From contig JANXYG010000125.1 in assembly GCA_025350245.1 (NCBI GenBank), forward strand, positions 90 to 64,089: DNA of 64,000 nt, read 5' to 3'. The notes below the pieces were generated by a model. That model did not search any database and was not told where the DNA came from. It was given only the letters and a program-made list of their open reading frames with translations. Shown here piece after piece: positions 25,530 through 42,017 of this stretch. A program made the translations under genes and the position numbers. The DNA comes from Betaproteobacteria bacterium. GTDB taxonomy: Bacteria; Pseudomonadota; Gammaproteobacteria; Burkholderiales; Ga0077523. The stretch's first letter is position 1. Every line of letters begins with the position of its first letter.

Positions 25530-26999
25530 GTGAACGCCACGGCTCCCGACAGCCAGCCAGCCCGACCCGATCTGCTGATCGTCGACGACGACCCGCTCAT
25601 CACCGATACGCTCGACTTCTTGCTCGGGCGCGATTTCAACGTCTACGCCGCCGAATCACGCCCCCAGGCGCGCAGCCTGCTCGCCCAACTTGGCCGGGTT
25701 CCCGGGCTGGCACTCGTGGATCTGGGCCTGCCACCATTGCCGCATCGCCCCGACGAGGGGTTCCGGCTGATCTCGGAACTGCTGGCCGCGGCCCCGGCGA
25801 TCAAGATCATCGTGCTCTCCGGGCAGAACGACGACGCCAATGGCCGCCATGCCCGGGCGCTCGGCGCTTTCGAATTCGTGGCCAAGCCATGCGATCCGGA
25901 AACGCTGAAAACGCTGCTGCTGCGTGCCCGCGAAGTGTCCTGCGCCGAGCGCACGGCCGCGGCGGCCGGCGACCGCATCATCGGGACCAGTTTCGCCATC
26001 GCCAAGCTGCGCCAGCAGATTGCCCAGTACGCCGCGTCGCCATTCCCGGTCCTGATCGAAGGTGAATCCGGCAGCGGCAAGGAGCGGGTGGCGCAGGCAC
26101 TGCACGATGGCAGCCCGCGCGCGGCACGCCCCTACCTCGCGCTCAATTGCGCGGCAATTGCCCCCGGCCTGGTCGAACCGACGCTGTTCGGCTACGCCAA
26201 AGGCGCGTTCACCGGTGCCGGCACGGCGCGCGCGGGCTACTTCGAGGATGCGCGCGATGGCACGCTGTTCCTGGACGAGATCGGTGAATTGCCGCTCGAG
26301 CTGCAGTCGAAACTGCTGCGTGTGCTCGAGAATGGCGAATTCCAGCGCGTGGGTGAAACCCAGACCCGCAACAGCAATGCGCGGGTGATCGCCGCCACCA
26401 ATCGAGACCTGCGGCAGGAGATCCGCGGCGGCAGGTTTCGCGTCGACCTGTTTCACCGGCTGTCCGTGTTCTCTATCCTGGCCCCGCCCTTGCGCGATCT
26501 GGGCGAAGACCGGGAACGACTTCTGGAGCACTTCACGCACCGGTACGCCGCGCAGGGCGGTGTCGCGCCGTTCCGGCTCGACGCCGATGCGCGTGCCTTG
26601 TGGATGGCGTATCCGTTTCCCGGCAACGTGCGCGAACTGCGCAACATCGTGATCCGGCTGGTCACCAAGCACCCGGGAACAACGGTGGACCGATTGCTGC
26701 TCGCCACCGAACTCGATAGCGATGGCGGCGCATTCCGAAGCACCGCATCGCCCGATGCCATGTTCGAACCCACCCAGGCCGATGCGCGGCGCATTCTCGA
26801 ACAGCGTCGAACCCTGGACCTCGACGCCGAGCTGCGCCAATGGGAACGCTGTTTCGTCGAGGCGGCACTGGATCTTTCGCAAGGCAATCTGAGCCAGGCA
26901 GCGCGGATTCTGGGCATGCATCGCACCACGCTCTACAGCCGCATGCAGAGCTATCGGACGGAAGCGGTCGCAGCCGGATCACCGCGACCGGCTCTCTGA
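25530..26999 (+). CDS. sigma-54-dependent response regulator (NtrC/PilR class)
   Basis: It has a receiver domain (LLIVDDD, VDLGLPP, AKP). It also has an AAA+ sigma-54 interaction domain ([14 protein letters not shown]) and a C-terminal Fis-type HTH ([20 protein letters not shown]). Confidence 0.9.
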
Positions 27000-27039: not shown

Positions 27040-28563
27040 ATGTACTACGCCTTCTACGGACTGAAGCTGCCACCATTCCGTATCACGCCGGACACCGAGT
27101 TCTTCTTCGATGGTGCCAATCGCGGCGCGGTGCTGGAGGCGCTGACCTACGCCATCATCTCCGGCGAGGGGATCGTCAAGGTAACCGGCGAGGTCGGCAG
27201 CGGCAAGACCATGCTTTGCCGGGTCTTGCAGCAGCGGCTGGCGCCGACCGTGGACATCGTCTATCTCGCCAATCCGAACGTGCCCCCCGAACAAATCCTG
27301 CATGCGATCGCGTTCGAGCTGCAGTTGCCGGTCGGACGCGAGGCGTCCCGCCTCGAGGTGATGCATGCCCTGCAGGCGTATCTGGTGGAACGGCATGCGC
27401 AACGCCGGCAAGTGGTGGTGTTCGTCGAAGAATCCCAGGGAATGCCGATCGCCACCCTGGAGGAGATCCGCCTGTTGTCCAACCTCGAAACCGACCGGCA
27501 CAAACTGCTGCAGCTGGTGCTGTTCGGCCAGCCCGAACTGGACGAGAACCTGCGCCAGAACCACATCCGCCAACTGCGGGAACGCATCACCCACAGCTTC
27601 TACCTGTCGCCATTGTCGGCGGCGGAGATCGAAGACTATCTTCGCTTCCGCCTGCAGGCGGCCGGCTATCGTGGTCCCGACCTGTTCTCGCGCCGGGTGA
27701 TCCAGTTCATCGCGCGGGCCAGCGCCGGCCTCACTCGAAGGGTCAACATCATCGCCGACAAGGCGCTGCTGGCGGCCTACGCCGGCAACACACACACAGT
27801 CACACTCGCGCACGTCAGGCAGGCCGTCGATGACAGCGAATTCAGCCGCGGGCAGTCGCCGCGCCGGCGGCGAGCATGGTTGCCATGGGCCGCGGGTATC
27901 GCCTGCACCGCGATCCTGGTCAGTGGTGCCGCCTGGTGGCGGTGGTCGGCGAATGCCGCTCCCGTGAGTGGCTCGCGGCTCGATCCGACGGCGGCGATCA
28001 CAACGCCTGCCCAGGCAGGCGTTGCGGAACCTCCCTCGCAATCGCAGCCCGTGCCCGCCCGGCCTACTCCGGTGTCGGTTGACCCGCGGCCACCGGGCCC
28101 GGAAGACGTCGATCTCGCCGGCCCGCAGCGCCTGCATATTTCAGCAAACATCAGCGCGCCTCCCACGGTGCCGACAGCAAGGGGCGACGCGGCATCCGCA
28201 ACGGGTGACGCCGGCCAGACGCTGCTCGAGCGCCGCCTCGCCGCGATGCCAGCCTGGCTGCGCGCCCAGCCGGAAGACGCTTACACGGTCCAGCTCATCG
28301 GGGCCAGCGACGCAAAATACCTCAAGCAATATTTGAAGACACTCTCGAAGTCTATTGATACGGATAATGTTTTTGTGTACCGTACCAGAGCAAATCTGAA
28401 GCCCTTCATGACCGTGGTGTATCGGACGTATCCATCCTTACGATCCGCCAGGGATGCCATCGACCAGTTTCCTTCGGATTTGCAGCGATTCCGCCCCTAT
28501 GAGCGGACCATCCGCGGCCTGCGTGCCGAAGTGATGGCGGGGGTCGGCGCCGCCGACCCGTGA
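27040..28563 (+). CDS. ExeA/MshM-like AAA+ ATPase fused to a periplasmic SPOR-like domain
   Basis: It has the N-terminal YYAFYGLKLPPF motif and Walker A GEVGSGKT. A TM segment (AWLPWAAGIACTAILVSGAAWW) and a Pro-rich linker follow. The C-terminal region YTVQLIGASD...VVYRTYPSLRSARDAI is SPOR-like. Confidence 0.8.
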   Translation: MYYAFYGLKLPPFRITPDTEFFFDGANRGAVLEALTYAIISGEGIVKVTGEVGSGKTMLCRVLQQRLAPTVDIVYLANPNVPPEQILHAIAFELQLPVGREASRLEVMHALQAYLVERHAQRRQVVVFVEESQGMPIATLEEIRLLSNLETDRHKLLQLVLFGQPELDENLRQNHIRQLRERITHSFYLSPLSAAEIEDYLRFRLQAAGYRGPDLFSRRVIQFIARASAGLTRRVNIIADKALLAAYAGNTHTVTLAHVRQAVDDSEFSRGQSPRRRRAWLPWAAGIACTAILVSGAAWWRWSANAAPVSGSRLDPTAAITTPAQAGVAEPPSQSQPVPARPTPVSVDPRPPGPEDVDLAGPQRLHISANISAPPTVPTARGDAASATGDAGQTLLERRLAAMPAWLRAQPEDAYTVQLIGASDAKYLKQYLKTLSKSIDTDNVFVYRTRANLKPFMTVVYRTYPSLRSARDAIDQFPSDLQRFRPYERTIRGLRAEVMAGVGAADP

Positions 28564-28633: not shown

Positions 28634-30430
28634 ATGATGACCGGGTCGGAACCTTGGCTTCGCGGCAGGGCCGTGACCGCCGGCAGCGTGTTCGTGCTGG
28701 CGCTGGCGAGCACGTTGTCTGCGTGCGTCTACCGCGCGCCGTCGATCCCGGTTTCCGACGCCCATCTCGGGATGGAACGGATGGCGCCGACGACGCCGGG
28801 CGACATCCCTGCCGCCGTATCGGTGCCGTCGCCGCCACCGCCGCGACCGCAGCAGAAACTGCCCACCTACAGCGTGGTCGTGAATGAAGTCCCGGTGAAG
28901 GAACTGTTGTTCGCCCTGTCTCGCGACACCCGGCAGAACATCGACATCAACCCTGCATTGCAGGGACTGGTCAGCCTCAACGCCATCGACGAAACCCTGC
29001 CGGCGATTCTCGACCGGATCGCGCGCCAGACCAACCTGCGCTGGCGCCAGGACGGACGCGTCATCTACGTGTCGCCCGACACGCCGCACGTGCGCACCTA
29101 CAAGGTCAACTACGTGAACGTCAGCCGCGAGACCGATTCGACGGTATCGGTCTCCGGACAGATCGGCACGGTCGGCGGTACCGGCGGCGGAGCCGGTGGT
29201 GGTGGCGGCGGTTCGAACTCGTCCAGTACGACCGTCAACACCAAATCCAAGAACGATTTCTGGAAGACGCTCGAAGACAACGTCAAGAGCATCCTCGCGG
29301 CCACCCGCGCCCAGACGCTGTCGTCTGACGAGCGGGCTGCCCGGGCCGAAGGCATCCGGGCCCGGCGGGAGGAGCGGATCGCGCAGGCGGAAGCCGTCGC
29401 GCGCGCGGGGCAGAACGCGAAAGACCTGTTCAATAGTGCCTTCGACGGACAGACCGCGGCGGCGATCCCCGGCGACGTCACCAACGAGGTCGCGGTGAAT
29501 GCGGTCGCCGGGACCGTGACGATCCTCGCCACCGACAAGCAGCACACCCTGGTCCAGCAGTACCTCGATGCCGTGTCGGCCGCCACCCAGCGCCAAGTGC
29601 TGATCGAGGCCACGATCGTCGAGGTCGAGCTGTCGCGTGCCTATCAGGCCGGCATCGATTGGGGGCGCGTCGCGAGCAGCCCCGGGGCCGGCATCAGCTT
29701 CGGCCAGAACCTGCTCGGCGCGACGCTGAGCGCCGCCCCGAACGTGAGCTTGAGCTATGGGTCGATCACGCCTGGAAACCTGTTCGCGACCATCAAGCTG
29801 CTCGAGACGTTCGGCAACGCGCGGGTCCTCTCGAGCCCCAAGGTCATGGCGCTGAACAATCAGACGGCGATCCTCAAGGTAGTTCGCAACGTCGTCTATT
29901 TCACCATCCAGCAGCAGATCAGCCAGAGCACCGTACTCGGCGGCACCGGCCTTCAGGCCACCACCACCACCGCCCGCACCGTGCCGCTCGGTCTGGTCAT
30001 GAGCCTGACGCCGCAGATCAACGAGAACGGTCAGGTAACGCTCAATGTCAGGCCGACGGTCACCAGTCAGGTCGGGGAAACGCTCGATCCGAATCCGGCC
30101 CTGGCGGTCACCAACCCACCCCTGAAGAACGCGATCCCGATCGTCGAGATCCGCGAAATCGAGTCGGTTCTGCAACTACAGAGCGGGCAGACCGCGATTC
30201 TCGGCGGCCTCATCAAGGACGAGATCCGGCGCAAGCGATCGCAGGTTCCCGGGGTCGGCAACACCGCTGTCGGTGACCTGTTCGCCCTACGCGACGAACA
30301 GGCGATCAAGACCGAACTCGTGATCTTCCTGCGCCCGACGATCGTCACCAACCCTTCGCTCGACGCCGAAGAACTCCGGTTCCTGCGCCCTTTGCTGCCC
30401 AACCCCGGACAGCCGGGCCCGGCGCGCTGA
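28634..30430 (+). CDS. lipoprotein secretin (MshL/GspD/PilQ superfamily)
   Basis: It has a lipobox (LALASTLSAC) and a C-terminal secretin core (LQSGQTAILGGLIKDE, VPGVGNTAVGDLFA, ELVIFLRPTIV). Confidence 0.85.
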   Translation: MMTGSEPWLRGRAVTAGSVFVLALASTLSACVYRAPSIPVSDAHLGMERMAPTTPGDIPAAVSVPSPPPPRPQQKLPTYSVVVNEVPVKELLFALSRDTRQNIDINPALQGLVSLNAIDETLPAILDRIARQTNLRWRQDGRVIYVSPDTPHVRTYKVNYVNVSRETDSTVSVSGQIGTVGGTGGGAGGGGGGSNSSSTTVNTKSKNDFWKTLEDNVKSILAATRAQTLSSDERAARAEGIRARREERIAQAEAVARAGQNAKDLFNSAFDGQTAAAIPGDVTNEVAVNAVAGTVTILATDKQHTLVQQYLDAVSAATQRQVLIEATIVEVELSRAYQAGIDWGRVASSPGAGISFGQNLLGATLSAAPNVSLSYGSITPGNLFATIKLLETFGNARVLSSPKVMALNNQTAILKVVRNVVYFTIQQQISQSTVLGGTGLQATTTTARTVPLGLVMSLTPQINENGQVTLNVRPTVTSQVGETLDPNPALAVTNPPLKNAIPIVEIREIESVLQLQSGQTAILGGLIKDEIRRKRSQVPGVGNTAVGDLFALRDEQAIKTELVIFLRPTIVTNPSLDAEELRFLRPLLPNPGQPGPAR

Positions 30431-30433
30431 CCC

Positions 30434-31954
30434 ATGAGTCTGCTGCTGCAGGCTTTGCAGAAAGCGGCCCGCAACCGCGAGCAGGCCAGTGCCGCATCGC
30501 CCGAAGCAAGCACCGAGCCGATCGCGGACAACCGGTCGATGCTCGACCTCGAGCCGGGCGAGTTCGACCCCAACCGCAGCATCGGCCGGGATCCCTCGGG
30601 TTCCGACCCGGAGACCGCCGCGACGCCCGCGGCAACGCCGCCTCTCGCATTGGAAACGCCCGCGTTCACAACCGCCGCCAGGGCAACGCCGCGTCCCACT
30701 TTTGTCGATGGCATGGACGAACCGACGCCGCGGCAGGCGGCGATCCTGATGCGTGCCGCCGCGACGGCGAAAGAACCGCGTTTCAACGCGATCGACTGGG
30801 CTCGCGACCATCCGGTCTATCTGTTCGCCGCGGCAGCGTGCGTTTTTCTGGCCGGTTACGGCGGCTACGTCTACCTCGCCATCACCCAACCCGGCCTGCT
30901 GTCGGGCGGCGGATTCAACCAGCAGGCGCCGGCGGCGCCGGTCGGCCCGCTTTCGGCCGCACCGCGCCCGCCCGGTGCGGCCACGAACGGCGCCGGGGCA
31001 ACGACCCCGTCGCAAACCGCACCCTCGCTGTTGCCGGCTGTCACCGGGACACCAACGGTCGCGCCCGGGCTGGGCCAGGCCGGCACCCCGCCCCAGGGTG
31101 GAACGACCGCGCAGCCGGCGCCGGCATTGCCGGCGCCGCGACCCGGCACCACTGCCGGCCAGACCAATACCGTTCAAGGTGCCGGCGCATCGGCGCCAGC
31201 CATCCCGCAACCGCCACCGCAGGTCGAACCGGTTCGACCGATCGCGGTTGCCGAATCACCGGCACCGATCGCGGCGCGATCCGGTTCCGCTCTCCGCGCC
31301 AGCCGCAGGCCGGCAGCGGAAGTTAACGGCAACATCCCCACGAACAAGCTGGAAGTACGCGCCAGCGGCAGTGCAGCCGCGATCACCGCTCAGTTGAACG
31401 AGGCCTATGCGGCATCCCGGAAGGGTGAAGCGCACGCCGCCGGGGATATCTATGAACGGGTACTGGCGAGCGATGCGCGCAATGTCGACGCGATGCTGGG
31501 CCTCGCCGCGCTCGCCTGGCAGGGCGGCAGAACCGAGCAGGCCAGCGACCTGTACTACCGAATCCTGCAATCCGAGCCGCAGAACGCCGCCGCGCAAGCC
31601 GGCCTGATCGGACTGGTGGGCCGGGTCGATCCGCTCGCGAGCGAAACCCGCCTGAAGCAACTCATCGCCCGCGAACCGGCCGGCTCACTTTATTTCGCTC
31701 TCGGCAATCTCTACACGTCGCAAGGCCAGTGGGCGGCCGGCCAGCGCGCCTATTTCCAGGCGGTGGAAGCCGATTCGGGCAATCCGGACTATGTGTTCAA
31801 CCTGGCCGTTGCCCTGGAACACATCGGGCAGCAGAAACCTGCGCTGGCCAACTACCGCAAGGCGCTGGACCTGTCGTTCGCCCGCGGCGGCGGTGGATTC
31901 GACCAGCAGCAGGTGATCGCCCGCATCGGCCAACTGTCGCTCGCCGTAGAATGA
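30434..31954 (+). CDS. bitopic TPR protein with GspB/MshN-like N-terminus
   Basis: It begins MSLLLQALQKAARNREQ and has a single TM (VYLFAAAACVFLAGYGGYVYLAI). A long Pro/Ala-rich spacer leads to C-terminal TPR repeats. Confidence 0.7.
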   Translation: MSLLLQALQKAARNREQASAASPEASTEPIADNRSMLDLEPGEFDPNRSIGRDPSGSDPETAATPAATPPLALETPAFTTAARATPRPTFVDGMDEPTPRQAAILMRAAATAKEPRFNAIDWARDHPVYLFAAAACVFLAGYGGYVYLAITQPGLLSGGGFNQQAPAAPVGPLSAAPRPPGAATNGAGATTPSQTAPSLLPAVTGTPTVAPGLGQAGTPPQGGTTAQPAPALPAPRPGTTAGQTNTVQGAGASAPAIPQPPPQVEPVRPIAVAESPAPIAARSGSALRASRRPAAEVNGNIPTNKLEVRASGSAAAITAQLNEAYAASRKGEAHAAGDIYERVLASDARNVDAMLGLAALAWQGGRTEQASDLYYRILQSEPQNAAAQAGLIGLVGRVDPLASETRLKQLIAREPAGSLYFALGNLYTSQGQWAAGQRAYFQAVEADSGNPDYVFNLAVALEHIGQQKPALANYRKALDLSFARGGGGFDQQQVIARIGQLSLAVE

Positions 31955-33708
31955 TCGATATGGCCATCTCCGTCGCACCAACGCCCAAGCCTCCGGTACC
32001 GGACCCGCCGCGCCGCAAGATGCGGCTTGGCGAGTTGCTGGTGCAGCAGGGACTGGTCACGCCCGACCAGTTGCGCATCGCGCTCACCGAGCAAAAATCG
32101 CAGCGCATGCCGATCGGGCGGCTGCTGGTGCGCCTGGGATTCGTCACCGAGGCGGTGATCCGCGATCTCATGGCGCGCGCCATCGGCCAGGAAGCCATCG
32201 ACCTCTCGCAGGTCGTGGTCGACGCCGACGCGCTCAAGTTCGTGCCGCAGGAATTTGCCCGGCGCCAGCGGATGCTGCCGATCGCCTTCGAGACCAACGA
32301 GCGCGTGCTCACGGTCGCCACCACCGAGATGTTCAACGTGGTGGCGGTGGACCAGTTGCGCGCCGCGCTGCCATCGAACGTGCAACTGCGCACCGTGCTC
32401 GCCGGGGAAGCCCAGCTCGAGGACTTCATCGATCAGTTCTACGGCTTCGAGCTGTCGGTCGACGGCATCCTGCGGGAGATCGAGACCGGCGAGATCGACT
32501 GGCAGAGTCTCCAGTCCGGCGGCGACGAATACACCCAGCCGATCGTGCGGCTGGTCAATGCGCTGATGATCGACGCCGTGAAGCGCGGCGCCTCGGACAT
32601 CCACTTCGAGCCCGAACTCGCCTTCCTGCGCATTCGCTACCGCATCGACGGCGTCCTCGAGCAGGTCCGAAGCCTGCACAAGAACTACTGGCCCGGCATT
32701 GCCGTGCGGCTCAAGGTCGTGAGCGGCATGAACATCGCCGAGACCCGGGCACCGCAGGATGGCCGCATCTCGCTCAACCTGAACGGTCGGCCGGTCGATT
32801 TCCGGGTGTCGTGCCATCCGACCATCTACGGCGAGAACATCGTCCTGCGCATCCTCGACCGCCAGAAGGCGATCATCAGCCTGGATCAGATGCGCCTGCC
32901 CAAACCGGTGCTGGCGAAGCTCAACCTGATGCTGGCGCGGCCCGAGGGCATCCTCGTGATCACTGGCCCTACCGGCAGCGGCAAGACCACGACGCTCTAC
33001 TCGCTGCTGTCGCAAGTAAACGTCGAAGGGGTCAACATCATGACCCTCGAAGATCCGGTCGAGTATCCGGTCGCGCTGATCCGGCAGACCTCGGTGGGCG
33101 ACGCGGTCAAGCTCGATTTCGCCAACGGCATCCGCTCGATCATGCGCCAGGACCCGGACATCATCCTGGTGGGCGAAGTGCGCGACCGCGAGACCGCCGA
33201 GATGGCATTCCGGGCGGCGATGACCGGTCACCAGGTGTTCACCACGCTGCACACCAATTCGGCGCTGGGCGCATTTCCGCGACTGCTCGACATCGGCATC
33301 CTGCCCGACATCATCGCCGGCAACGTCATCGGGATCATCGCCCAGCGGCTGGTGCGCACGCTGTGCCGTCATTGCAAGATCGAATACCGACCGTCGCTCG
33401 AGGAAAAACACATTCTCGGGCTGCCCCCGGAAAGCCCGGCCACCGTGTTCCGGCATCATGACGGCGGCTGCCAGCACTGCAACGCCCGCGGCTTCAAGGG
33501 GCGGATGGCGATCCTCGAGATCCTGCACATGGACGCCGATCTCGACGAACTCGTGGCGCGCCGCGCGACCGCGCGGGAACTGCGACGCGCCGCCGACGAA
33601 CGCGGCTTCCGTTCGCTGGCCGACGAGGGCGTGGCGCGCGTGCTCGAGGGCGCCACCAGCATCGCCGAGGTGTCGCGATCGGTCGACCTCACGGCACGGG
33701 TACTCTAG
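31951..33708 (+). CDS. MshE-type type IV filament assembly ATPase (GspE/PilB family)
   Basis: It has Walker A GPTGSGKTT, the tetracysteine CRHC...CQHC and an N-terminal MshEN-type tandem motif. An ATGA overlap joins it to the upstream gene at 31951. Confidence 0.9.
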   Translation: MIDMAISVAPTPKPPVPDPPRRKMRLGELLVQQGLVTPDQLRIALTEQKSQRMPIGRLLVRLGFVTEAVIRDLMARAIGQEAIDLSQVVVDADALKFVPQEFARRQRMLPIAFETNERVLTVATTEMFNVVAVDQLRAALPSNVQLRTVLAGEAQLEDFIDQFYGFELSVDGILREIETGEIDWQSLQSGGDEYTQPIVRLVNALMIDAVKRGASDIHFEPELAFLRIRYRIDGVLEQVRSLHKNYWPGIAVRLKVVSGMNIAETRAPQDGRISLNLNGRPVDFRVSCHPTIYGENIVLRILDRQKAIISLDQMRLPKPVLAKLNLMLARPEGILVITGPTGSGKTTTLYSLLSQVNVEGVNIMTLEDPVEYPVALIRQTSVGDAVKLDFANGIRSIMRQDPDIILVGEVRDRETAEMAFRAAMTGHQVFTTLHTNSALGAFPRLLDIGILPDIIAGNVIGIIAQRLVRTLCRHCKIEYRPSLEEKHILGLPPESPATVFRHHDGGCQHCNARGFKGRMAILEILHMDADLDELVARRATARELRRAADERGFRSLADEGVARVLEGATSIAEVSRSVDLTARVL

Positions 33709-33750
33709 CGCCGCGCCCATGGGGCCAGCCCTCACGGACCCCTATTCCCG

Positions 33751-34953
33751 ATGCCGTCCTTCCAGTACAAGGCAGTCGACCCTGCCGGACTGTCCTCCCG
33801 GGGCAAACTCGAAGCATCCAACGAGGTCGACCTCGAGTTGCGCCTCAAGCGCATGGGCCTCGATCTCATCACGGTTCGCCAGACCCGCTCGGGCGGCGGT
33901 AGCGCCACCGCCAACATCAACCGCAAGGATCTGATCAATCTCTGCTTCGACCTCGAGCAGATGACCGGTGCCGGCATTTCACTGCTCGATGGCCTGCGCG
34001 ATCTGCGCGACAGCGTCGGCGGGAGCGGGATGAAGGCGGTGCTCACGGCACTGGTCGAAGACATCGAGGGCGGCCGCATGCTGTCGCAGGCCATGGGTCA
34101 GCACCCCAAGGTGTTCAACGGCGTATTCGTGAGCCTGGTGGCGGCAGGCGAGCAGTCGGGCCAGCTGACCGAGATTTTCCGCAGCCTGTCCGAGTCGCTG
34201 CGCTGGCAGGACGAACTCGCGGCGCAGACCAAGAAGGTGCTCATCTATCCGGCGATCCTGACGTTCCAGCTGATCGCGGTGACCGTTTTCCTGCTCGTCT
34301 ACCTGGTACCCCAGGTGGTGAGCGTGCTCAAGACCATGCAGGTGGACCTGCCGATACAGACAGTCGTGCTGATCGGGGTGTCCGGTTTCGTGGTCCGCTT
34401 CTGGTGGCTGGTCATCGGCCTGCCGGTACTGACGGTGGTCGGGGGCATCGTACTGTTCAGGTCGAGCGACAAGGCGCGCTTCGAGTTCGACCGCCTCAAG
34501 CTGCGCCTGCCGGTCATCGGTCCGGTGTTCCAGAAGATCATCCTGGCACGCTTCGCGAGCTTCTTCGCGCTGATGTACCGGTCGGGCATCACCGTGCTCG
34601 ACGCCATGCGAACCAGCCAGAACATCGCCGGCAACCTCGTCATCGCCGATGCCCTGCAGCGGGCGACCGTGCGGGTCAATGCCGGAGAGCCGCTGTCCGA
34701 AGCGATTGCCGGCACCGGGATGTTTCCGTCGCTGGTGATCCGGATGCTGCGGGTGGGCGAAGCCACCGGCGCGCTCGATACCGCCCTGCTGAACGTCAAC
34801 TACTTCTACACCCGTGACGTAAAGGATTCGGTGGAGGGCGCGCTCAAGCTGATCGAACCGATCCTGACCCTGTTGATGGGCGGTCTGCTCGCGCTCATCC
34901 TGTTCTCGGTCCTCACGCCGATCTACGACATGATCGGCAAGATGAAGTTTTGA
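33751..34953 (+). CDS. GspF/PilC/MshG-family inner-membrane platform protein
   Basis: The 400-aa product starts with the typical MPSFQYKAVDPAG. It has a duplicated cytoplasmic domain and three-TM architecture. Confidence 0.85.
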   Translation: MPSFQYKAVDPAGLSSRGKLEASNEVDLELRLKRMGLDLITVRQTRSGGGSATANINRKDLINLCFDLEQMTGAGISLLDGLRDLRDSVGGSGMKAVLTALVEDIEGGRMLSQAMGQHPKVFNGVFVSLVAAGEQSGQLTEIFRSLSESLRWQDELAAQTKKVLIYPAILTFQLIAVTVFLLVYLVPQVVSVLKTMQVDLPIQTVVLIGVSGFVVRFWWLVIGLPVLTVVGGIVLFRSSDKARFEFDRLKLRLPVIGPVFQKIILARFASFFALMYRSGITVLDAMRTSQNIAGNLVIADALQRATVRVNAGEPLSEAIAGTGMFPSLVIRMLRVGEATGALDTALLNVNYFYTRDVKDSVEGALKLIEPILTLLMGGLLALILFSVLTPIYDMIGKMKF

Positions 34954-34955
34954 CG

Positions 34956-36533
34956 ATGGCGAACCGGCTACTGGTCTGCATATCGGCACACGGGGTTTCG
35001 GTCGCGCGCTGGAACGGGAAGCTCTTCGCCACCACCCGTTTCGACAACGACGACGCGGGACTGGACGGCTTCACGCGGTATCTCAAAGCCGGCCGCTCGG
35101 CACCGGTGCATGTCATGGTCGACAGCACCGACGAGGATTACCGGGTCGAGACGCTGCCGCACACCGGGGGCCGTGACCGTCGCGAGCTGGTCCAGCGCAA
35201 GCTGAAGCAGATCTATCGAACCACCCCCTATTTCGCGGCGGTGGCGCAGCCGGTCGCCAAACCGCAGAACCGGCTCAAGGGCGCCCGGCGCGAAGACCGC
35301 TTCCTGTTCGCGGCCCTGACCGAGGCCGACCTGCTCGCGCCCTGGATCAACGCGATCACCGCCCGCGCTCTGCCAGTCGCCGGCGTGTTTCCGCTGCCCG
35401 CCGTCACCGCGGCGGTGGTGCCGCGGCTGAAGCTGAAGAGCGAGAATCTGCTGGTGATCTCGAAGGATGTCGCCGGCTTTCGGCAGACCTTCTTCAAGGA
35501 CGGCCGTTTCCGTCTCACCCGCCTGACCCAGGCGCGCGGCGGCGGCGACCGCACCATCGACTGGTCGTTCGCGGACGAAGTCCGGAACACCCGGCTGTAT
35601 CTCGACGCGCTCGGCGTCACTCTCGCCGACAACCTGGTCGATGTGCTCATTCTCGACCACGACAACTCCCTGGCGAGCCTGCACCAGGCGCTCGAGCACA
35701 AGCGCGGCAACCTGCAGTGTCAGCGCCTCGCCCGCGAAGAGCTGATACTGAAACTGAAGGTGCCCGATGCGGCCATCGCGGCGACCCCCGATGCCCTGCA
35801 TCTGCAGCTCCTGGGCAGCTACACCCCGGTCGAGAACCTGGCACCGGCCGCGTTGCTCGAGCCATACCGCCTGTTTCGCGCGCGCCGCTGGCTGTTTGCG
35901 GCTACGGCCGCGGTTGTCGCCATCGGCGGCATCTGGTTCGGCATCGACCTGCAACGCGTCCAGTCCATCGACGACGAATCGCGTCGGTTCTCGACCGACG
36001 CGGCGCGCTTCGAAGCGCAATATCGCGAACTGACACGCCAGTTCCCGCAGGCGCCGGCGAGTTCTGCAACGCTCAAGCTCACCGTCGAGGTGGCGGCGCG
36101 CATCCGTGACAACGTCCGGACCCCGGAGACCCTGTTCGCGGTGGTGAGCGACGCCCTGGCATCGTCGCCGACCGTCGCGGTGACCAGCCTCGCCTGGAAG
36201 TACGGCAAGTATCCCGATGCCGCAACGGCGTTCGCGCCGGCCTCGATCACCGGGACCGCCACCGATCGCGAGTGGCGCCAGGTCGGTCTGATGGTCGGCG
36301 AGATCACCCCGTTCGCCGGCGACTATCGCTCCGCCATTTCCAGCATCCGCGACTTCGCCCAGCGGCTGCGACAAAGTCCCCTCGTGGCCGACGTGAGGAT
36401 CATCAAGCTGCCGCTCGACGCCAGCTCGCGGCAGAGTCTGACCGGGAGCACGGCGACCGCGACCGAACAGCGACGCAGCGCGCTGTTCGAGATCGCCATC
36501 ACCTACAAGCCGCAACCGGGGCTGCCCGCATGA
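34956..36533 (+). CDS. bitopic assembly protein with GspL / PilM-PilN-fusion (MshI-like) architecture
   Basis: The 525-aa product has a ~310-aa cytoplasmic domain, one TM (WLFAATAAVVAIGGIWFGIDL) and a ~190-aa periplasmic domain. The call is by position and topology only. Confidence 0.5.
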   Translation: MANRLLVCISAHGVSVARWNGKLFATTRFDNDDAGLDGFTRYLKAGRSAPVHVMVDSTDEDYRVETLPHTGGRDRRELVQRKLKQIYRTTPYFAAVAQPVAKPQNRLKGARREDRFLFAALTEADLLAPWINAITARALPVAGVFPLPAVTAAVVPRLKLKSENLLVISKDVAGFRQTFFKDGRFRLTRLTQARGGGDRTIDWSFADEVRNTRLYLDALGVTLADNLVDVLILDHDNSLASLHQALEHKRGNLQCQRLAREELILKLKVPDAAIAATPDALHLQLLGSYTPVENLAPAALLEPYRLFRARRWLFAATAAVVAIGGIWFGIDLQRVQSIDDESRRFSTDAARFEAQYRELTRQFPQAPASSATLKLTVEVAARIRDNVRTPETLFAVVSDALASSPTVAVTSLAWKYGKYPDAATAFAPASITGTATDREWRQVGLMVGEITPFAGDYRSAISSIRDFAQRLRQSPLVADVRIIKLPLDASSRQSLTGSTATATEQRRSALFEIAITYKPQPGLPA

Positions 36534-37150
36534 AGACCGGCCCGCAAAACGTGTGGTCGCTGGTGGGGCCGGCGCTGGTCCTGGTCATTGCCGCCGCGCT
36601 CACGCTGATGGCGATTTGGTACGCCGAAGGGCTGGTCGCAAACCGCCAGCAGTTGCGCGACACCGCCCAGCGACAACGCGTCGATGCGGATAAGAAGCAC
36701 GCCAATGCCGGCGCCGAGAAGAAACTCATAACGGACTATCTCGCCCCGTACTCGGCGTTGCAGGACGCCGGGTTCGTCGGTGGCGAGCAACGCATCGACT
36801 GGGTCGACAGCCTGCGTACCGCCAACCGCGCGGCCGGCCTGTTCGGGGTCAACTACGATATCGGCCAGCAGGAAGCCTATCCGCTGGCGAGGGATCTGGG
36901 CGCCGGCGATCTGCCGCTCAAGCAGTCACCGATGAAGCTCACCCTGCCGCTGCTCCACGAGGGCGACCTGATGGCGTTCTTCCGCAGCCTTGCCGCGCAG
37001 CGCGCCGGCCTGTTCATGCTCAACGGCTGCAACCTGAGGCGCACCGGCATCGTCCCGCCCAGCGGAACCCAGGCAAACCTCACCGCCGAGTGCGAGGTCG
37101 CCTGGATCACCGTCGACGATACCCAGGCGAAAGCGGGACAACGGCCATGA
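36530..37150 (+). CDS. bitopic protein in the PilO/GspM/MshJ slot
   Basis: The 206-aa product has ATGA coupling at both ends. It has an N-terminal TM (LVGPALVLVIAAALTLMAIW) and a periplasmic domain. No family motif was recognised. Confidence 0.5.
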   Translation: MKTGPQNVWSLVGPALVLVIAAALTLMAIWYAEGLVANRQQLRDTAQRQRVDADKKHANAGAEKKLITDYLAPYSALQDAGFVGGEQRIDWVDSLRTANRAAGLFGVNYDIGQQEAYPLARDLGAGDLPLKQSPMKLTLPLLHEGDLMAFFRSLAAQRAGLFMLNGCNLRRTGIVPPSGTQANLTAECEVAWITVDDTQAKAGQRP

Positions 37151-37809
37151 CGATCAGGATGCCGGCCGTGCCGGCGCTGCTGCTGGTTCTGCTGTCGGGG
37201 TCCACACTCGCCGAAGACCCCCTCGGGCGTCTGTTCTTCACGCCGGCCCAGCGCGTAGAACTCGACCGCGAACGCGCCGCCGCGGCCACCAACGCGTCGC
37301 GACCGGCGGCGGTGCAGGCCCAGCCGAAGGCACCCCCACCGAAGATGGTGACCCTGAACGGTATCGTGCGCCGCAGCGACGGCGAAACCACGGTGTGGGT
37401 GAACAACAAGCCTCTGCACGAGCGCTTCGGCGATGCCGAGATCGATGCCGGGTCCATCGCCCGCGAGGGCGTCGGCATCAATCTCCCGGCTTCGGGCAAA
37501 CAGGTGCGCCTCAAGGTCGGACAGACGGTCGATGCCACCAGTGGCAGGGTGGCGGAAAGCTATGACCACCGGGCGCCGCAACCGCCGTCGACCAGGGACG
37601 CCGAAACCGCGGCGCAGGAGGCGAAAGCCGTCGCCGCCGACACGACCGCCAGGGCCGAAACCGATGCCAGGCGGCGTGAAGCCATCCGCAGCCGGCGTGA
37701 ACGCCAGCGCGCCGAGCCCCAGGTTCTCTTCGAGACCGAACCACCGGCGGGGGCCCCCGCGCCTGGCACCACCACCGTCACCACCATCACGAATGACGCG
37801 GCACGCTGA
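37147..37809 (+). CDS. secreted periplasmic protein in the PilP/MshK slot
   Basis: The 220-aa product has a signal peptide (MPAVPALLLVLLSGSTLA). It has a beta-rich core (LNGIVRRSDGETTVWVNNK) and an Arg/Glu-rich tail. Confidence 0.45.
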   Translation: MTIRMPAVPALLLVLLSGSTLAEDPLGRLFFTPAQRVELDRERAAAATNASRPAAVQAQPKAPPPKMVTLNGIVRRSDGETTVWVNNKPLHERFGDAEIDAGSIAREGVGINLPASGKQVRLKVGQTVDATSGRVAESYDHRAPQPPSTRDAETAAQEAKAVAADTTARAETDARRREAIRSRRERQRAEPQVLFETEPPAGAPAPGTTTVTTITNDAAR

Positions 37810-39256
37810 CGGGTTTCCCGCACGCGAGCGCGGCGTCGTCGTGCTGCTGATGCTGGTGCTGGGGGCGCTCGTGGGCGTGCTGTTCTTCACCGGGGTCCTC
37901 GGCGGCGGACCCACCACCAGCGAGCGCGATCTCATCACGCGCGCCGCACTCGCCAAGGCGAAGACCGCACTGATCGACTATGCGGTCACCTATATGGACA
38001 CGCATCCCAACATGCCGCCCGGCTTCCTGCCTTGCCCCGAAATCGACGGCAGCCTGCGTGAAGGATCGCCGGCCCTGGGCGGCTGCAACAACGTCGGCGA
38101 GAACGCGATCGGGCGCCTGCCCTGGTACACGCTCGGCATCGAACCGTTGCGGGACGGCTACGGCGAATGTCTCTGGTACGCCGTATCAGGCAACTACAAG
38201 AACGACCCCGCGCCGTTGCTGCTCAACTGGAACTCCAACGGGACCCTGCGCGCCTTCCTCGCGGTCCCGGTAGGCGGAACCCCGCCCCCGCTCGACAACA
38301 ACGTGCTGCAACGCGCCGTCGCCGTGATCATCGCGCCCGGACCGGCGCTTGGTACCCAGACACGTAACATGGCGACCGTGAATCCAGCGCCAGATCTGTG
38401 TCGCGGCAACCGCATCGCGGCGAACTATCTGGAAACCAGCAACAGCGTCAACAATGCGGCCATGGCGACGATCGGCGAGGCCAGCTTCATTTCCGGCGTG
38501 CCGACCGCGGCCTTCAACGACCGGCTTATCACCATCACCGCGGGCGAGATCTGGGCGGCGATCCTGCGGCGGCCGGATTTCCAGGCCCGGCTGCGGCTTC
38601 TCACCCAGAGGGTGGCCGAGTGCATCGCGTATTACCCGCAGACCGGCGCCACCGGCAATGCCAACGATCGCCGGCTGCCCTGGGCATCGAACCCCGGTTA
38701 CTTCGATCGCGAGCCGATCTACTACAGCGATGACCTCTCGCGCACGCTGGCGGGCCGGGCGCCGTACTCGGTCAGTGTTTCGAACGTGGACATCGGCCGC
38801 ACCACGTGGGGTACCAGCACGACCCTGCTGGGTGAAAACGGTGTCGCCAGCGGCAAGTGCCCCACGGGTGCCGCGGGCTGGAACACGATGATCAACAACT
38901 GGTGGAATCACTGGCGCGATCATGTGTTCTACGCGGTGAGCCGCAACTTCGCACCGAACGGACAGGCGTCCAACACCGGGTGTTCGCCGAGCACCAACTG
39001 CATCACCGTCGACGGCGTCGGACCGTACGCGGGCGTGGTGATGTTCGCCGGGGAGATCCTGCCGGCAGTGACGCCGAACCAGACCCGGTTCTCGGATTCA
39101 TTGAAGTTCAACTTCGCGTCCTATCTTGAGGCGCGCAACAAGAGCGCCAATGCCGCCGGCAACAACGACTACCAGACGTCGGCGACCGCGGCGCCGCCGT
39201 TCAACGACATTCTCTACTGCATTAACGTGACGCTGGCGGTAGCTGCGTGCCCATGA
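37793..39256 (+). CDS. large (487 aa) pilin-like protein with non-canonical N-terminus (GspK/PilX-like)
   Basis: The N-terminus RERGVVVLLMLVLGALVGVLF has a hydrophobic helix but no Phe+1/Glu+5. Several motifs are shared with the downstream prepilin (LPCP, YAVSG). Confidence 0.55.
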   Translation: MTRHADGFPARERGVVVLLMLVLGALVGVLFFTGVLGGGPTTSERDLITRAALAKAKTALIDYAVTYMDTHPNMPPGFLPCPEIDGSLREGSPALGGCNNVGENAIGRLPWYTLGIEPLRDGYGECLWYAVSGNYKNDPAPLLLNWNSNGTLRAFLAVPVGGTPPPLDNNVLQRAVAVIIAPGPALGTQTRNMATVNPAPDLCRGNRIAANYLETSNSVNNAAMATIGEASFISGVPTAAFNDRLITITAGEIWAAILRRPDFQARLRLLTQRVAECIAYYPQTGATGNANDRRLPWASNPGYFDREPIYYSDDLSRTLAGRAPYSVSVSNVDIGRTTWGTSTTLLGENGVASGKCPTGAAGWNTMINNWWNHWRDHVFYAVSRNFAPNGQASNTGCSPSTNCITVDGVGPYAGVVMFAGEILPAVTPNQTRFSDSLKFNFASYLEARNKSANAAGNNDYQTSATAAPPFNDILYCINVTLAVAACP

Positions 39257-40029
39257 TGGTCTCGCGGCGCCGGCGCGATGCCGGCTTTTCCCTGATCGAG
39301 CTGGCCATCGGCCTGGTGATCGTCGCGACCCTGTTGTCGAGTCTGCTGGTACCCCTGGTCACGCAGCTCGACCAGAAGCGCACCGCCGAAACCCAGCGCC
39401 TGCTGGAGCAGGCACGCGAAGCGCTGATCGGCTTCGCCGCGGCCAACAACCGCCTGCCCTGCCCGGCGACCGACGCGCCCGGCGCCACCGGCAACGAGAG
39501 CTTTGCCGCCGGGGGCTCCGCCACCACTGGCGCATGCTTGGCGGCGACCGGCCCCCTGCCCGGGGTAACGCTGGGCCTGTCGCCGCTGGATGCGCAGGGA
39601 TTCTATGTCGATGCCTTCGCCAGCGACCGCAATCGCATTCGCTACGCGGTGTCCGGCCAGATGGTGAACGGCGTCACCAACCCCTTCACCCGCATCAACG
39701 GGATGAAGAACGCGACGATGACTGCCATTGCAGCATCCAGCAGCCTGCTGTTCGTGTGCAGCGCGACGCCGGCGGCATCGAACTGCGGCACGGCGACCGC
39801 GCTCGCCAACGGCACCGCCATCGCGGTCGTCTTCTCGCCCGGAAAGAACGCGATCCTCAATGCGCCCAGCGCCGACGAGCTGGAGAACACCGACACCGAC
39901 AACGTGTTCGTGAGCCGGCCCTATTCCGACCGGACCGGAGGGGCGAGCACCGTGTTCGACGATCAGATGCTCTGGTTGTCACCGGCGCCGCTGTTCAGCC
40001 GCCTGCTCAGCGCCGGCGCGCTCCCCTGA
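39253..40029 (+). CDS. prepilin-type protein (minor pilin/pseudopilin)
   Basis: It has the class III signal RRRRDAG|FSLIELAIGLVIVATLL. An ATGA overlap joins it to the upstream gene (ATG 39253). Confidence 0.85.
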   Translation: MMVSRRRRDAGFSLIELAIGLVIVATLLSSLLVPLVTQLDQKRTAETQRLLEQAREALIGFAAANNRLPCPATDAPGATGNESFAAGGSATTGACLAATGPLPGVTLGLSPLDAQGFYVDAFASDRNRIRYAVSGQMVNGVTNPFTRINGMKNATMTAIAASSSLLFVCSATPAASNCGTATALANGTAIAVVFSPGKNAILNAPSADELENTDTDNVFVSRPYSDRTGGASTVFDDQMLWLSPAPLFSRLLSAGALP

Positions 40030-41844: not shown

Positions 41845-41856
41845 GTCAGTGCCCGC

Positions 41857-41930
41857 CGGGGCCGTCCCAAGGACACCGCCCCCCTGGAGGAAGGCGAAGC
41901 GCAGCGCAGCCTGGGGGCGGGCGTCACCTC
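41857..41930. repeat. 3' two-thirds of the ~100-nt repeat unit
   Basis: GGGGCCGTCCCAAGGACACCGCCCCCCTGGAGGAAGGCGAAGCGCAGCGCAGCCTGGGGGCGGGCGTCACC aligns to the units at 12571 and 61067. Confidence 0.8.
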
Positions 41931-42017
41931 CATACACCGGTAGGAGCGACCGCGCGCGTTGTGTAGCATCACGGCCTCGTCATCCCGGCCCGCGCCTTGC
42001 CCTCTCCGGCATTCTCG

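What the first reader, a model, noticed from the sequence alone, without database searches (positions are those of the whole stretch)
32023..32181. Near-perfect tandem MshEN c-di-GMP-binding motif at the N-terminus of the assembly ATPase
Residues 25-48 read RLGELLVQQGLVTPDQLRIALTEQ. This fits every fixed position of the published 24-residue MshEN motif RLGxx(L/V/I)(L/V/I)xxG(L/V/I)(L/V/I)xxxxLxxxLxxQ. A 5-residue spacer (KSQRM) follows. The second, more degenerate copy is PIGRLLVRLGFVTEAVIRDLMARA. This is the exact architecture reported for high-affinity c-di-GMP binding in Vibrio MshE. It predicts that filament assembly here is gated post-translationally by c-di-GMP, on top of the sigma-54/two-component transcriptional layer.
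Basis: partly seen in the sequence, partly recalled or inferred. Interest (0 to 1): 0.6.

Follow-up and report, generated by a model that had tools for sequence, protein, structure and literature searches.

The report
c-di-GMP-binding MshEN motif on pilus ATPase
The pilus-assembly ATPase in this uncultured betaproteobacterium starts with a genuine copy of the well-known MshEN cyclic-di-GMP-binding module, so its pilus is probably switched on by c-di-GMP as in Vibrio cholerae; this is an ordinary new member of a widespread, already described receptor family.

Summary
Window 32023-32181 (+) encodes RLGELLVQQGLVTPDQLRIALTEQ-KSQRM-PIGRLLVRLGFVTEAVIRDLMARA, residues 25-77 of a 585-aa GspE/PilB/MshE-type ATPase (31951-33708). 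Copy 1 fits every fixed position of the published 24-residue motif. Copy 2 keeps both glycines and all hydrophobic positions, but has Pro for Arg at position 1 and Ala for Gln at position 24. NCBIfam's MshE-related c-di-GMP-motif model scores 63.3 bits against a cut-off of 38. The stretch aligns without gaps to V. cholerae MshE (5HTL). AlphaFold2 predicts four helices over the motifs, and 5HTL is the best structural match. In 121 clade homologues the two motifs are the most conserved segments and the 5-residue spacer is free. Pro is invariant across the clade. The last residue is Thr or Ser in nearly all relatives; only this window and one other locus have Ala. The gene lies in a conserved MSHA-like cluster with a sigma-54 activator and a conserved -24/-12 promoter upstream of a pilin gene. 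c-di-GMP gating of pilus extension is well supported by homology, probably at reduced affinity, but it is untested. MshEN is a widespread known module, so this is a new member of a known kind and of low interest.

The parts
31951..33708 (+). 585-aa GspE/PilB/MshE-type assembly (extension) ATPase
   Evidence: Pfam T2SSE 402 bits (residues 195-576) plus PF05157 53 bits (residues 80-168). NCBIfam GspE 503 bits and PilB 496 bits, both below their equivalog cut-offs. Best PDB sequence matches are PilB, PilF and GspE. Thousands of homologues exist; the best 120 listed are 78-98% identical and those that carry a source organism name come from Burkholderiales / Betaproteobacteria MAGs; the related genome loci are likewise almost all Betaproteobacteria/Burkholderiales MAGs.
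31951..32022 (+). Variable N-terminal extension (residues 1-24) ending in the basic patch RRK
   Evidence: pLDDT below 50 for residues 1-20. Mean entropy 1.60 bits in the clade. Most homologues are 567 aa and have the motif at residue 9. The start codon is therefore uncertain; ATG codons also occur at 31960 and 32020.
32023..32094 (+). MshEN motif I, RLGELLVQQGLVTPDQLRIALTEQ (residues 25-48)
   Evidence: Matches all fixed positions of the published motif. Aligns to V. cholerae MshE R9-Q32. Predicted helices 26-32 and 38-51. Clade entropy 0.20 bits.
32095..32109 (+). 5-residue non-conserved spacer, KSQRM (residues 49-53)
   Evidence: Same length as in MshE. Entropy 1.30 bits in the clade, so it varies freely, as the paper describes for this linker.
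32110..32181 (+). MshEN motif II, PIGRLLVRLGFVTEAVIRDLMARA (residues 54-77); variant with Pro at position 1 and Ala at position 24
   Evidence: Aligns to V. cholerae MshE R38-Q61. Predicted helices 55-61 and 67-77. Clade entropy 0.13 bits. Pro in 119/119 proteins and 69/69 loci. Last residue is T or S in almost all; A occurs only here and in L063.
32188..32454 (+). MshEN_C (T2SSE_N / N1E) alpha/beta subdomain, residues 80-168
   Evidence: PF05157 at 53.4 bits. Aligns to MshE residues 65-145, with E126 opposite the ligand-contacting D108. Strands 109-114, 119-124 and 145-150 in the model.
32533..33678 (+). T2SSE ATPase core (N2 + CTD) with Walker A GPTGSGKTT at 32965
25530..26999 (+). NtrC-type sigma-54-dependent response regulator at the head of the cluster
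   Evidence: NtrC 347 bits and PEP_resp_reg 331 bits, both below cut-off. Syntenic in 42 of 43 related loci.
27040..28563 (+). MshM/ExeA-like AAA ATPase
   Evidence: Pfam AAA_22 at 91.6 bits. TIGR03015 at 222 bits, below its cut-off of 324. Syntenic in 42 of 43 loci.
28634..30430 (+). MshL-like secretin
   Evidence: TIGR02519 pilus_MshL is the best secretin model at 224 bits (cut-off 250). Pfam Secretin and Secretin_N_2 also match.
30434..31954 (+). TPR protein in the MshN position
   Evidence: Multiple TPR families. Sits immediately upstream of the ATPase with an ATGA overlap.
33751..34953 (+). GspF/PilC/MshG-type platform protein
   Evidence: Pfam T2SSF twice. GspF 313 bits, below cut-off.
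34950..36533 (+). 527-aa PilM-PilN / GspL-like protein (MshI-like), the likely docking partner of the ATPase N-domain
   Evidence: No Pfam or NCBIfam hit. AF2 mean pLDDT 85.5. Foldseek top hits are PilM 5EOU (E = 7.6e-12) and GspL-cyto 4PHT_Y and 1YF5. Syntenic in 43 of 43 loci.
36530..39256 (+). Three conserved genes with no family hit: p206 (36530-37150), p220 (37147-37809), p487 (37793-39256)
   Evidence: No hits. Overlapping start and stop codons. Present in 42-43 of 43 related loci.
39256..40029 (+). Prepilin-type protein (GFSLIELAIG)
   Evidence: N_methyl motif, PF07963 / TIGR02532.
40117..41937 (-). Sensor histidine kinase, convergent with the operon
   Evidence: HATPase_c; weak PrsK-like match. 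Present in 35 of 43 loci.
43598..43613 (+). Sigma-54-type -24/-12 element, TGGCATGCATCTCGCA
   Evidence: Lies 47 nt upstream of the pilin GTG. TGGCAY-N4-TCT[CG]GC[AG] sits at the same place in all 10 related loci that carry the pilin gene.
43660..44346 (+). Prepilin gene (MNSRRNQG|FTLIEIAIV...), candidate major pilin
   Evidence: PF07963 at 31.9 bits.

Best explanation
Residues 25-77 of the assembly ATPase form a true MshEN_N four-helix module. It is followed by the MshEN_C (N1E) subdomain and the N2-CTD motor.

By homology with V. cholerae MshE, one c-di-GMP molecule is clamped between the two helical hairpins. Each guanine stacks on a Leu/Ile/Met triangle: L26-I70-M74, and L41-L45-I55. The backbone amides of the (R/P)-h-G turns hydrogen-bond to the base.

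Ligand binding switches the hexameric ATPase into its extension-competent state. It probably does so through the contact of the N-domain with the PilM/GspL-like 527-aa protein and the platform protein. The MSHA-like pilus would then be polymerised only when c-di-GMP is high.

Copy 2 has Pro instead of Arg and, in this strain, Ala instead of Gln (Thr or Ser in almost all relatives). The affinity is therefore expected to be lower than for a perfect tandem, in the micromolar rather than the nanomolar range.

Transcription is controlled separately, by an NtrC-type sigma-54 activator with a histidine kinase acting on a -24/-12 promoter upstream of a pilin gene.

Shown here: the sequence motif, the domain match, the predicted fold, purifying selection on the motifs, and the cluster make-up. 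Inferred: ligand binding, its affinity, and its effect on extension.
For: - Exact motif in the sequence.
- NF053729 scores 63.3 bits against a cut-off of 38, covering model positions 1-52 of 53.
- Gapless alignment to 5HTL, with both Gly residues and all hydrophobic ligand-contact positions retained, and E126 opposite D108.
- AF2 helices at 26-32, 38-51, 55-61 and 67-77 with pLDDT 85-92; the top Foldseek hit is 5HTL (MshE with c-di-GMP) at probability 1.0 and E = 4e-8.
- The motifs are the most conserved part of the protein in 121 homologues (entropy 0.20 and 0.13 bits, against 0.48 for the catalytic CTD), while the spacer is free at 1.30 bits.
- Pro at motif position 1 has experimental precedent. 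PA14_29490 (PLG in motif I) has KD 0.48 uM. PilF GSPII-C (P335) has KD about 0.5 uM. NfrB also has PLG.
- A hydrophobic residue at this position is even better than Arg in PilF GSPII-B: L196R binds 4-fold worse.
- I/L exchange at the Leu positions costs only 2.4-fold.
- The MshE-c-di-GMP interaction promotes MSHA pilus extension in V. cholerae (PMC7096442).
- The cluster has the mandatory MSH parts and no prepilin peptidase.
Against: - No binding measurement exists for this clade.
- The terminal Gln of motif II, which gives two hydrogen bonds to ribose and phosphate, is Ala here and Thr in the clade. Q218E at this position in PilF GSPII-B lowers affinity 77-fold.
- S instead of R at position 1 of motif II abolished binding in an engineered PilF GSPII-A.
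- A fully restored consensus still failed to bind in intact PilF1-154, because of an elongated helix 1 and tight packing between subdomains. This protein has a 24-residue N-terminal extension.
- D. geothermalis PilB_3, which begins with PLG but has RLE in its second motif, showed no detectable binding.
- The global TM-score to 5HTL is only 0.34-0.42, because the arrangement of the two subdomains differs. The AF2 alignment was shallow, at 34 sequences of at least 65% identity.
- No GGDEF, EAL or PilZ gene was found among the window ORFs scanned.
Confidence: 0.7

Rival explanations
1. The module is a structurally intact MshEN fold that no longer binds c-di-GMP, or binds too weakly to matter, like XpsE, PilF GSPII-A or D. 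geothermalis PilB_3. It would serve only as the N1E docking domain for the PilM/GspL-like protein.
For: Two of the four polar side-chain contacts of a perfect tandem are missing in motif II: R->P and Q->A. Motif presence is not sufficient in PilF GSPII-A. PilB_3 of D. geothermalis showed no detectable binding. GspE N1 domains bind GspL-cyto, and the neighbouring 527-aa protein has that fold.
Against: Non-binders described so far have lost Gly or hydrophobic positions: XpsE has G11V, G40L, L54H and L58C, and PilB_3 has RLE. Here every Gly and every hydrophobic position is kept. The motifs are more conserved than the catalytic domain, which is hard to explain for a mere scaffold. Pro-containing motifs do bind at about 0.5 uM. 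A single loss of the terminal Gln leaves binding intact.
Confidence: 0.2
2. The clade-specific variant of motif II (Pro at position 1, Thr/Ser/Ala at position 24) has shifted ligand preference, for example towards 3'3'-cGAMP or another cyclic dinucleotide.
For: V. cholerae MshEN binds cGAMP weakly (PMC5013675, section heading and figure legend). The P...T signature is invariant in the clade.
Against: Guanine specificity comes from backbone amides of the h-G-x turn, which are unchanged. No evidence for a cGAMP synthase was found in the window. Pro-containing motifs tested so far bind c-di-GMP.
Confidence: 0.05
3. The machine is a type II secretion-like exporter rather than an adhesive pilus, so c-di-GMP would gate secretion, as proposed for P. 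aeruginosa PA14_29490.
For: The top NCBIfam models for the ATPase and platform are GspE and GspF. The 527-aa protein also resembles GspL-cyto.
Against: All GspE, GspF and GspD scores are below the equivalog cut-offs. The best secretin model is MshL. An MshM/ExeA-like ATPase and a TPR protein in the MshN position are present. There is no GspC, GspK or GspM and no set of T2SS pseudopilins.
Confidence: 0.1

Closest known systems
Vibrio cholerae MshE (VC0405) N-terminal MshEN domain, PDB 5HTL
   Same: 53-residue tandem (24 + 5 + 24) at the N-terminus of a pilus extension ATPase. Gapless alignment over residues 22-164. Both Gly residues and all hydrophobic ligand contacts are kept. An MshEN_C subdomain follows. 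The gene sits next to mshL, mshM, mshN and mshG-like genes.
   Different: Motif II has P for R38 and A for Q61, plus I for L39, I for L54 and M for L58. There is a 16-residue longer N-terminal tail. Gene order is M-L-N-E-G-I-like rather than I-J-K-L-M-N-E-G-F. About 31-35% identity in the domain.
[quoted passage not shown]
   Same: MshEN-type domains that bind c-di-GMP although the first residue of a motif is not Arg: K167 and L196 in GSPII-B, P335 in GSPII-C. This shows the consensus can be relaxed at the position where this protein has Pro.
   Different: PilF carries three tandem GSPII domains, whereas this protein has one. The GSPII domains that bind c-di-GMP (B and C) keep the terminal Gln in both motifs.
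Pseudomonas aeruginosa PA14_29490 / PA2677 (T2SS-type ATPase)
   Same: Full-length GspE-family ATPase with an N-terminal MshEN tandem that contains a PLG motif and binds c-di-GMP with KD 0.48 uM.
   Different: Pro is in motif I rather than motif II. It lies in a T2SS-like operon.
Xanthomonas XpsE N-domain (PDB 2D27/2D28): non-binding MshEN fold
   Same: Same two-subdomain fold. It is a weak sequence and structure match.
   Different: XpsE has lost the Gly and Leu positions (G11V, G40L, L54H, L58C...) and does not bind c-di-GMP. This protein keeps them all.

Membership tests
MshEN c-di-GMP-binding domain (Wang et al. 2016; NCBIfam NF053729) | [quoted passage not shown] | tested here: met
   Motif I fits at 11 of 11 fixed positions. 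The spacer is 5 residues. Motif II fits the published relaxed pattern except at the last residue, A. NF053729 scores 63.3 bits against a cut-off of 38 over model positions 1-52 of 53.
MshEN c-di-GMP-binding domain (Wang et al. 2016; NCBIfam NF053729) | Glycines at the four key positions (VcMshE G11, G18, G40, G47) and the two hydrophobic triangles (L10/L54/L58 and L25/L29/L39) | tested here: met
   G27, G34, G56 and G63 are present and invariant in the clade. The triangles are L26/I70/M74 and L41/L45/I55.
MshEN c-di-GMP-binding domain (Wang et al. 2016; NCBIfam NF053729) | Polar contacts: Arg at position 1 and Gln at position 24 of each motif | tested here: inconclusive
   Present in motif I (R25, Q48). 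Replaced in motif II (P54, A77; T77 in relatives). The literature shows Pro, Lys or Leu at position 1 and a single Gln loss are compatible with binding, but affinity drops.
MshEN c-di-GMP-binding domain (Wang et al. 2016; NCBIfam NF053729) | Four-helix MshEN_N bundle followed by an alpha/beta MshEN_C subdomain | tested here: met
   AF2 gives helices at 26-32, 38-51, 55-61 and 67-77 (pLDDT 85-92), followed by a beta-alpha domain. The Foldseek top hit is 5HTL at probability 1.0. PF05157 matches residues 80-168. Caveat: the global TM-score is only 0.34-0.42, because the inter-subdomain orientation differs.
MshEN c-di-GMP-binding domain (Wang et al. 2016; NCBIfam NF053729) | Specific binding of one c-di-GMP per domain | not testable with these tools
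   Needs ITC, DRaCALA or MST on the purified N-domain.
MSH (MSHA-type) type IV filament system (Denise et al. 2019 model) | [quoted passage not shown] | tested here: inconclusive
   Pilins (39256-40029, 43660-44346), an ATPase, a platform protein, a secretin whose best model is MshL (224 bits, cut-off 250), and an AAA_22 ExeA/MshM-like ATPase are all present. The TFF-SF HMMs themselves were not run, and the NCBIfam equivalog cut-offs are not reached.
MSH (MSHA-type) type IV filament system (Denise et al. 2019 model) | Single locus with no prepilin peptidase in it | tested here: met
   One contiguous block, 25530-44346. No Peptidase_A24 hit among the ORFs scanned. Only one T2SSE Walker A in the window. 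Criterion taken from PMC6668835.
GspE (T2SS) / PilB (T4aP) equivalogs | Score above the NCBIfam equivalog cut-off | tested here: not met
   GspE 503 bits against 630. PilB 496 bits against 676.

The most novel reading that the evidence does not exclude
The Burkholderiales clade carries a fixed variant of MshEN motif II: Pro at position 1, and Thr, Ser or Ala in place of the terminal Gln. This could tune the receptor to a distinct, lower-affinity c-di-GMP threshold or to half-site asymmetry. It sits in an MSHA-like machine of rearranged gene order with four conserved components of unknown family (p206, p220, p487, p249), which may be an undescribed subtype of MSH-class pilus.
Probability: 0.15. 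Interest if true: 0.35.

Novelty: new member of a known kind. Interest (0 to 1): 0.15.

Why it matters
It gives a concrete, testable prediction for a large group of uncultured freshwater, soil and wastewater Burkholiales-order bacteria: that surface attachment through this MSHA-like pilus is under direct c-di-GMP control. The natural P...T/A variant of the second motif is a ready-made test of how much the terminal Gln and the first Arg contribute to affinity. It does not change any concept. MshEN is an established, widespread receptor (>10,000 proteins in 2016; 4,986 cluster representatives at 50% identity detected here with a single 61-residue query) and NCBI's annotation pipeline already has a model for it.

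Tried and rejected
- **Generic sigma-54 scan.** TGGCACN5TTGCW with up to 2 mismatches over the whole window gave 27 hits against 29 expected, so there is no enrichment. Only the site upstream of the pilin gene proved meaningful, and that was through conservation in related loci.
- **Pfam PF05157 ('MshEN') as a test of the motif.** It matches residues 80-168, the C-subdomain, so it says nothing about the c-di-GMP motifs. NCBIfam NF053729 is the right model.
- **Local partners in the window.** A look for GGDEF/EAL/PilZ, PilT or a prepilin peptidase found none among the ORFs scanned.
- **Pfam at E <= 1 for p527, p206, p220, p487 and p249.** It returned nothing useful. Only p527 was resolved, by structure prediction.
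- **Literature search for MSHA/MshE in Betaproteobacteria.** It gave only incidental hits. The MshEN paper's supplement lists one betaproteobacterial example, Methylobacillus EpsG, and no ATPase of this clade.
- **Global superposition on 5HTL.** The TM-score is low (0.34-0.42) even though the local match is significant.
- **Reading the cluster as a T2SS.** I considered this and judged it less likely (see the rival explanations).
Full report
**1. Observation**

Translation of window:32023-32181:+ gives RLGELLVQQGLVTPDQLRIALTEQ KSQRM PIGRLLVRLGFVTEAVIRDLMARA, exactly as reported. The stretch lies in an ORF whose most plausible start is ATG 31951. That ATG overlaps the stop codon of the upstream TPR gene as ATGA. 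This gives a 585-aa protein in which the motifs occupy residues 25-48 and 54-77.

The published motif is RLGxx(L/V/I)(L/V/I)xxG(L/V/I)(L/V/I)xxxxLxxxLxxQ, two copies joined by five non-conserved residues (PMC5013675).

- Copy 1 satisfies all fixed positions.
- Copy 2 keeps G3, L6, V7, G10 and V12. It has conservative I2, F11, I17 and M21. It has Pro at position 1 and Ala at position 24.
- Copy 2 therefore fits the authors' relaxed search pattern except at its last residue.

The strict pattern occurs once in all six reading frames of the window and never in 100 codon shuffles.

**2. Domain identity**

- Pfam finds T2SSE (402 bits, residues 195-576) and PF05157 'MshEN' (53 bits). PF05157 covers residues 80-168, the C-terminal subdomain, so it does not test the motifs.
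- NCBIfam has a dedicated 53-position model, NF053729 ('cyclic di-GMP-binding domain-containing protein, MshE-related'). It matches residues 25-76 to model positions 1-52 with E = 1.3e-17 and 63.3 bits, against a cut-off of 38.
- phmmer against PDB sequences aligns residues 22-164 to residues 6-145 of V. cholerae MshE (5HTL), with no gap across the motifs. The correspondences are R25=R9, G27=G11, G34=G18, Q48=Q32, P54=R38, I55=L39, G56=G40, G63=G47, I70=L54, M74=L58, A77=Q61 and E126=D108.
- An AlphaFold2 model of residues 1-175 (34-sequence alignment; mean pLDDT 76.7, and 85-92 over the motifs) has helices at 26-32, 38-51, 55-61 and 67-77, followed by an alpha/beta subdomain. Residues 1-20 are disordered.
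- Foldseek against the PDB ranks 5HTL (MshE with c-di-GMP) first, at probability 1.0 and E = 4e-8. PilF GSPII domains, Xanthomonas PilB-N and XpsE-N follow.
- The global TM-score is only 0.34-0.42, because the relative placement of the two subdomains differs.

**3. Conservation**

The ATPase has thousands of homologues. The best 120 are 78-98% identical, and those with a source organism name are from Betaproteobacteria/Burkholderiales MAGs. Eighty genome loci were fetched. The nearest, L001, is 98% identical and comes from a 'Betaproteobacteria bacterium' MAG; the set also includes Sulfuricella and Sulfurimicrobium.

Mean column entropy across 121 sequences:

| Segment | Entropy (bits) |
|---|---|
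| Motif I | 0.20 |
| Motif II | 0.13 |
| Spacer | 1.30 |
| N-terminal tail | 1.60 |
| MshEN_C | 0.58 |
| N2 | 0.23 |
| Catalytic CTD | 0.48 |

The motifs are the most constrained part of the protein and the linker is free, exactly the pattern described for MshEN.

Pro at position 1 of motif II is invariant, in 119/119 proteins and 69/69 loci. The last residue is Thr (or Ser; Lys in one locus) in all but one related locus. Ala occurs only in this window and in L063, and the 98% relative L001 has Thr. The clade thus carries a fixed P...T variant, and this strain has a further T->A change.

**4. Will it bind?**

Evidence for binding:
- In V. cholerae MshEN, hydrophobic and Gly substitutions cost more than 10-fold, whereas changes of Arg9, Asp12 and Gln32 cost less than 5-fold.
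- Non-binders such as XpsE have lost Gly and Leu positions. None of these is lost here.
- Pro at position 1 occurs in proteins with measured binding: PA14_29490 (PLG in motif I, KD 0.48 uM) and PilF GSPII-C (P335, KD about 0.5 uM). It is also in NfrB and T. maritima TM0837.
- In PilF GSPII-B, a hydrophobic residue at this position is better than Arg: L196R binds 4-fold worse.
- Ile for Leu in the triangle costs 2.4-fold.

Evidence against binding:
- Q218E at the last position of motif II lowers GSPII-B affinity 77-fold. Binding persists at 460 nM, and only the double Q->E mutant abolishes it.
- R->S at position 1 abolished binding in an engineered GSPII-A. A perfect consensus did not bind in intact PilF1-154, because of an elongated helix 1 and tight inter-subdomain packing.
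- D. geothermalis PilB_3 (PLG..., but RLE in its second motif) showed no detectable binding.

My estimate is about 0.7 that c-di-GMP binds, probably more weakly than a perfect tandem would.

**5. Context**

The ATPase lies in a tightly packed operon with overlapping start and stop codons:

| Coordinates | Strand | Product |
|---|---|---|
| 25530-26999 | + | NtrC-type sigma-54 activator |
| 27040-28563 | + | MshM/ExeA-like AAA ATPase |
| 28634-30430 | + | MshL-like secretin |
| 30434-31954 | + | TPR protein |
| 31951-33708 | + | Assembly ATPase |
| 33751-34953 | + | GspF/PilC-type platform protein |
| 34950-36533 | + | p527 |
| 36530-37150 | + | p206 |
| 37147-37809 | + | p220 |
| 37793-39256 | + | p487 |
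| 39256-40029 | + | Prepilin |
| 40117-41937 | - | Histidine kinase (convergent) |
| 43660-44346 | + | Second prepilin |

The block is syntenic in 42-43 of the 43 related loci of at least 19 kb. This make-up matches the MSH class as defined by Denise et al.: mandatory mshA, E, G, L and M, a single locus, and no prepilin peptidase (PMC6668835). However, the gene order differs from the V. cholerae mshHIJKLMNEGF... operon, the NCBIfam equivalog cut-offs (MshL, GspE, PilB, GspF) are not reached, and the TFF-SF models were not run.

p527 has no family hit. It is confidently predicted (pLDDT 85.5) as a PilM/GspL-like actin-fold domain, followed by a long helix and a C-terminal alpha/beta domain. Its top hits are PilM 5EOU and GspL-cyto in complex with GspE, 4PHT. 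It is therefore the likely docking partner of the ATPase N-domain.

The sigma-54 layer is real. A TGGCATGCATCTCGCA element lies 47 nt upstream of the second prepilin's GTG. The same TGGCAY-N4-TCT[CG]GC[AG] element is found 55-60 nt upstream of the orthologous pilin gene in all 10 related loci that carry it. rpoN itself is at 50211-51713. No GGDEF, EAL, PilZ, PilT or PilD gene was seen among the window ORFs scanned.

**6. Mechanism**

By analogy with V. cholerae, c-di-GMP binding to MshE is required for and promotes MSHA extension, while low c-di-GMP favours PilT-driven retraction (PMC7096442). The most likely function here is post-translational gating of pilus polymerisation by c-di-GMP, through the N-terminal four-helix module, acting on top of sigma-54/two-component control of pilin transcription.

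Shown here: motif, domain, predicted fold, selective constraint, and cluster composition. Inferred: binding, affinity, and the direction of the effect.

**7. Novelty**

MshEN was described in 2016 as a widespread module with more than 10,000 proteins. A single-sequence search with residues 20-80 finds 4,986 cluster representatives at 50% identity with E <= 0.001, many with several repeats and varied architectures. NCBI's annotation pipeline already carries a model that recognises this very stretch.

The finding is correct but ordinary: a new, uncharacterised member of a known receptor family in a known kind of machine. The only mildly unusual features are the clade-fixed P...T(A) form of motif II and the unannotated accessory genes of the cluster.

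Noticed in passing
window 43598-43613 (+), upstream of prepilin gene 43660-44346: A sigma-54-type -24/-12 element, TGGCATGCATCTCGCA, lies 47 nt upstream of the pilin GTG. The same TGGCAY-N4-TCT[CG]GC[AG] element sits 55-60 nt upstream of the orthologous pilin in all 10 related loci that carry it. A generic consensus scan of the whole window was not enriched.
   Followed up: partly
window 34950-36533 (+): A 527-aa protein with no Pfam or NCBIfam hit, and 'hypothetical' in all 118 homologues. AlphaFold2 (pLDDT 85.5) gives a PilM/GspL-cyto actin-like fold, then a long helix (300-364) and a C-terminal alpha/beta domain. This looks like a PilM-PilN fusion (MshI/GspL-like).
   Followed up: yes
window 36530-37150, 37147-37809, 37793-39256, 42778-43527 (+): Four genes (206, 220, 487 and 249 aa) have no match in Pfam or NCBIfam even at E <= 1. 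The first three are syntenic in 42-43 of 43 related loci and the 249-aa gene in 21 of 43. p487 is Cys-rich and follows a TM segment, so it may be a large minor pilin or tip protein.
   Followed up: partly
window 24526-25422 (+) and 41997-42785 (+): An ABC-transporter ATP-binding gene sits directly upstream of the pilus cluster and an ABC-2-type permease-like gene directly downstream. The roughly 16-kb pilus block therefore lies between two halves of what looks like one transporter. The arrangement recurs in related loci: ABC ATPase in 36 of 43, permease in 22 of 43. It is unclear whether this reflects an insertion or a functional link.
   Followed up: no
window 32179-32181 (codon 77 of the ATPase): The last residue of motif II is Ala (GCC) in this window. 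It is Thr in the 98%-identical relative L001 and in 65 of 69 related loci. Only L063 shares Ala. This is a strain-level change at a ligand-contact position.
   Followed up: partly
window 31951-32022: The ATPase start is uncertain. Residues 1-24 are variable and predicted disordered, and most homologues are annotated 567 aa with the motif at residue 9. Alternative ATG codons lie at 31960 and 32020. [quoted passage not shown]
   Followed up: partly
window 46889-54026 (+): The housekeeping kdsD-kdsC-lptC-lptA-lptB-rpoN-ptsN-...-rapZ region lies a few kb downstream of the sigma-54-dependent pilus cluster. A KefB-type K+/H+ antiporter (44414-46441, -) lies between them.
   Followed up: no
window 27040-28563 (+): The MshM/ExeA-like AAA ATPase scores best against the 'XrtA/PEP-CTERM system-associated ATPase' model (222 bits, below cut-off). 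The response regulator, kinase and TPR protein also give sub-threshold PEP-CTERM-system hits (PrsR-, PrsK- and PrsT-like). This hints at shared ancestry of the regulatory parts with exopolysaccharide/PEP-CTERM loci.
   Followed up: no
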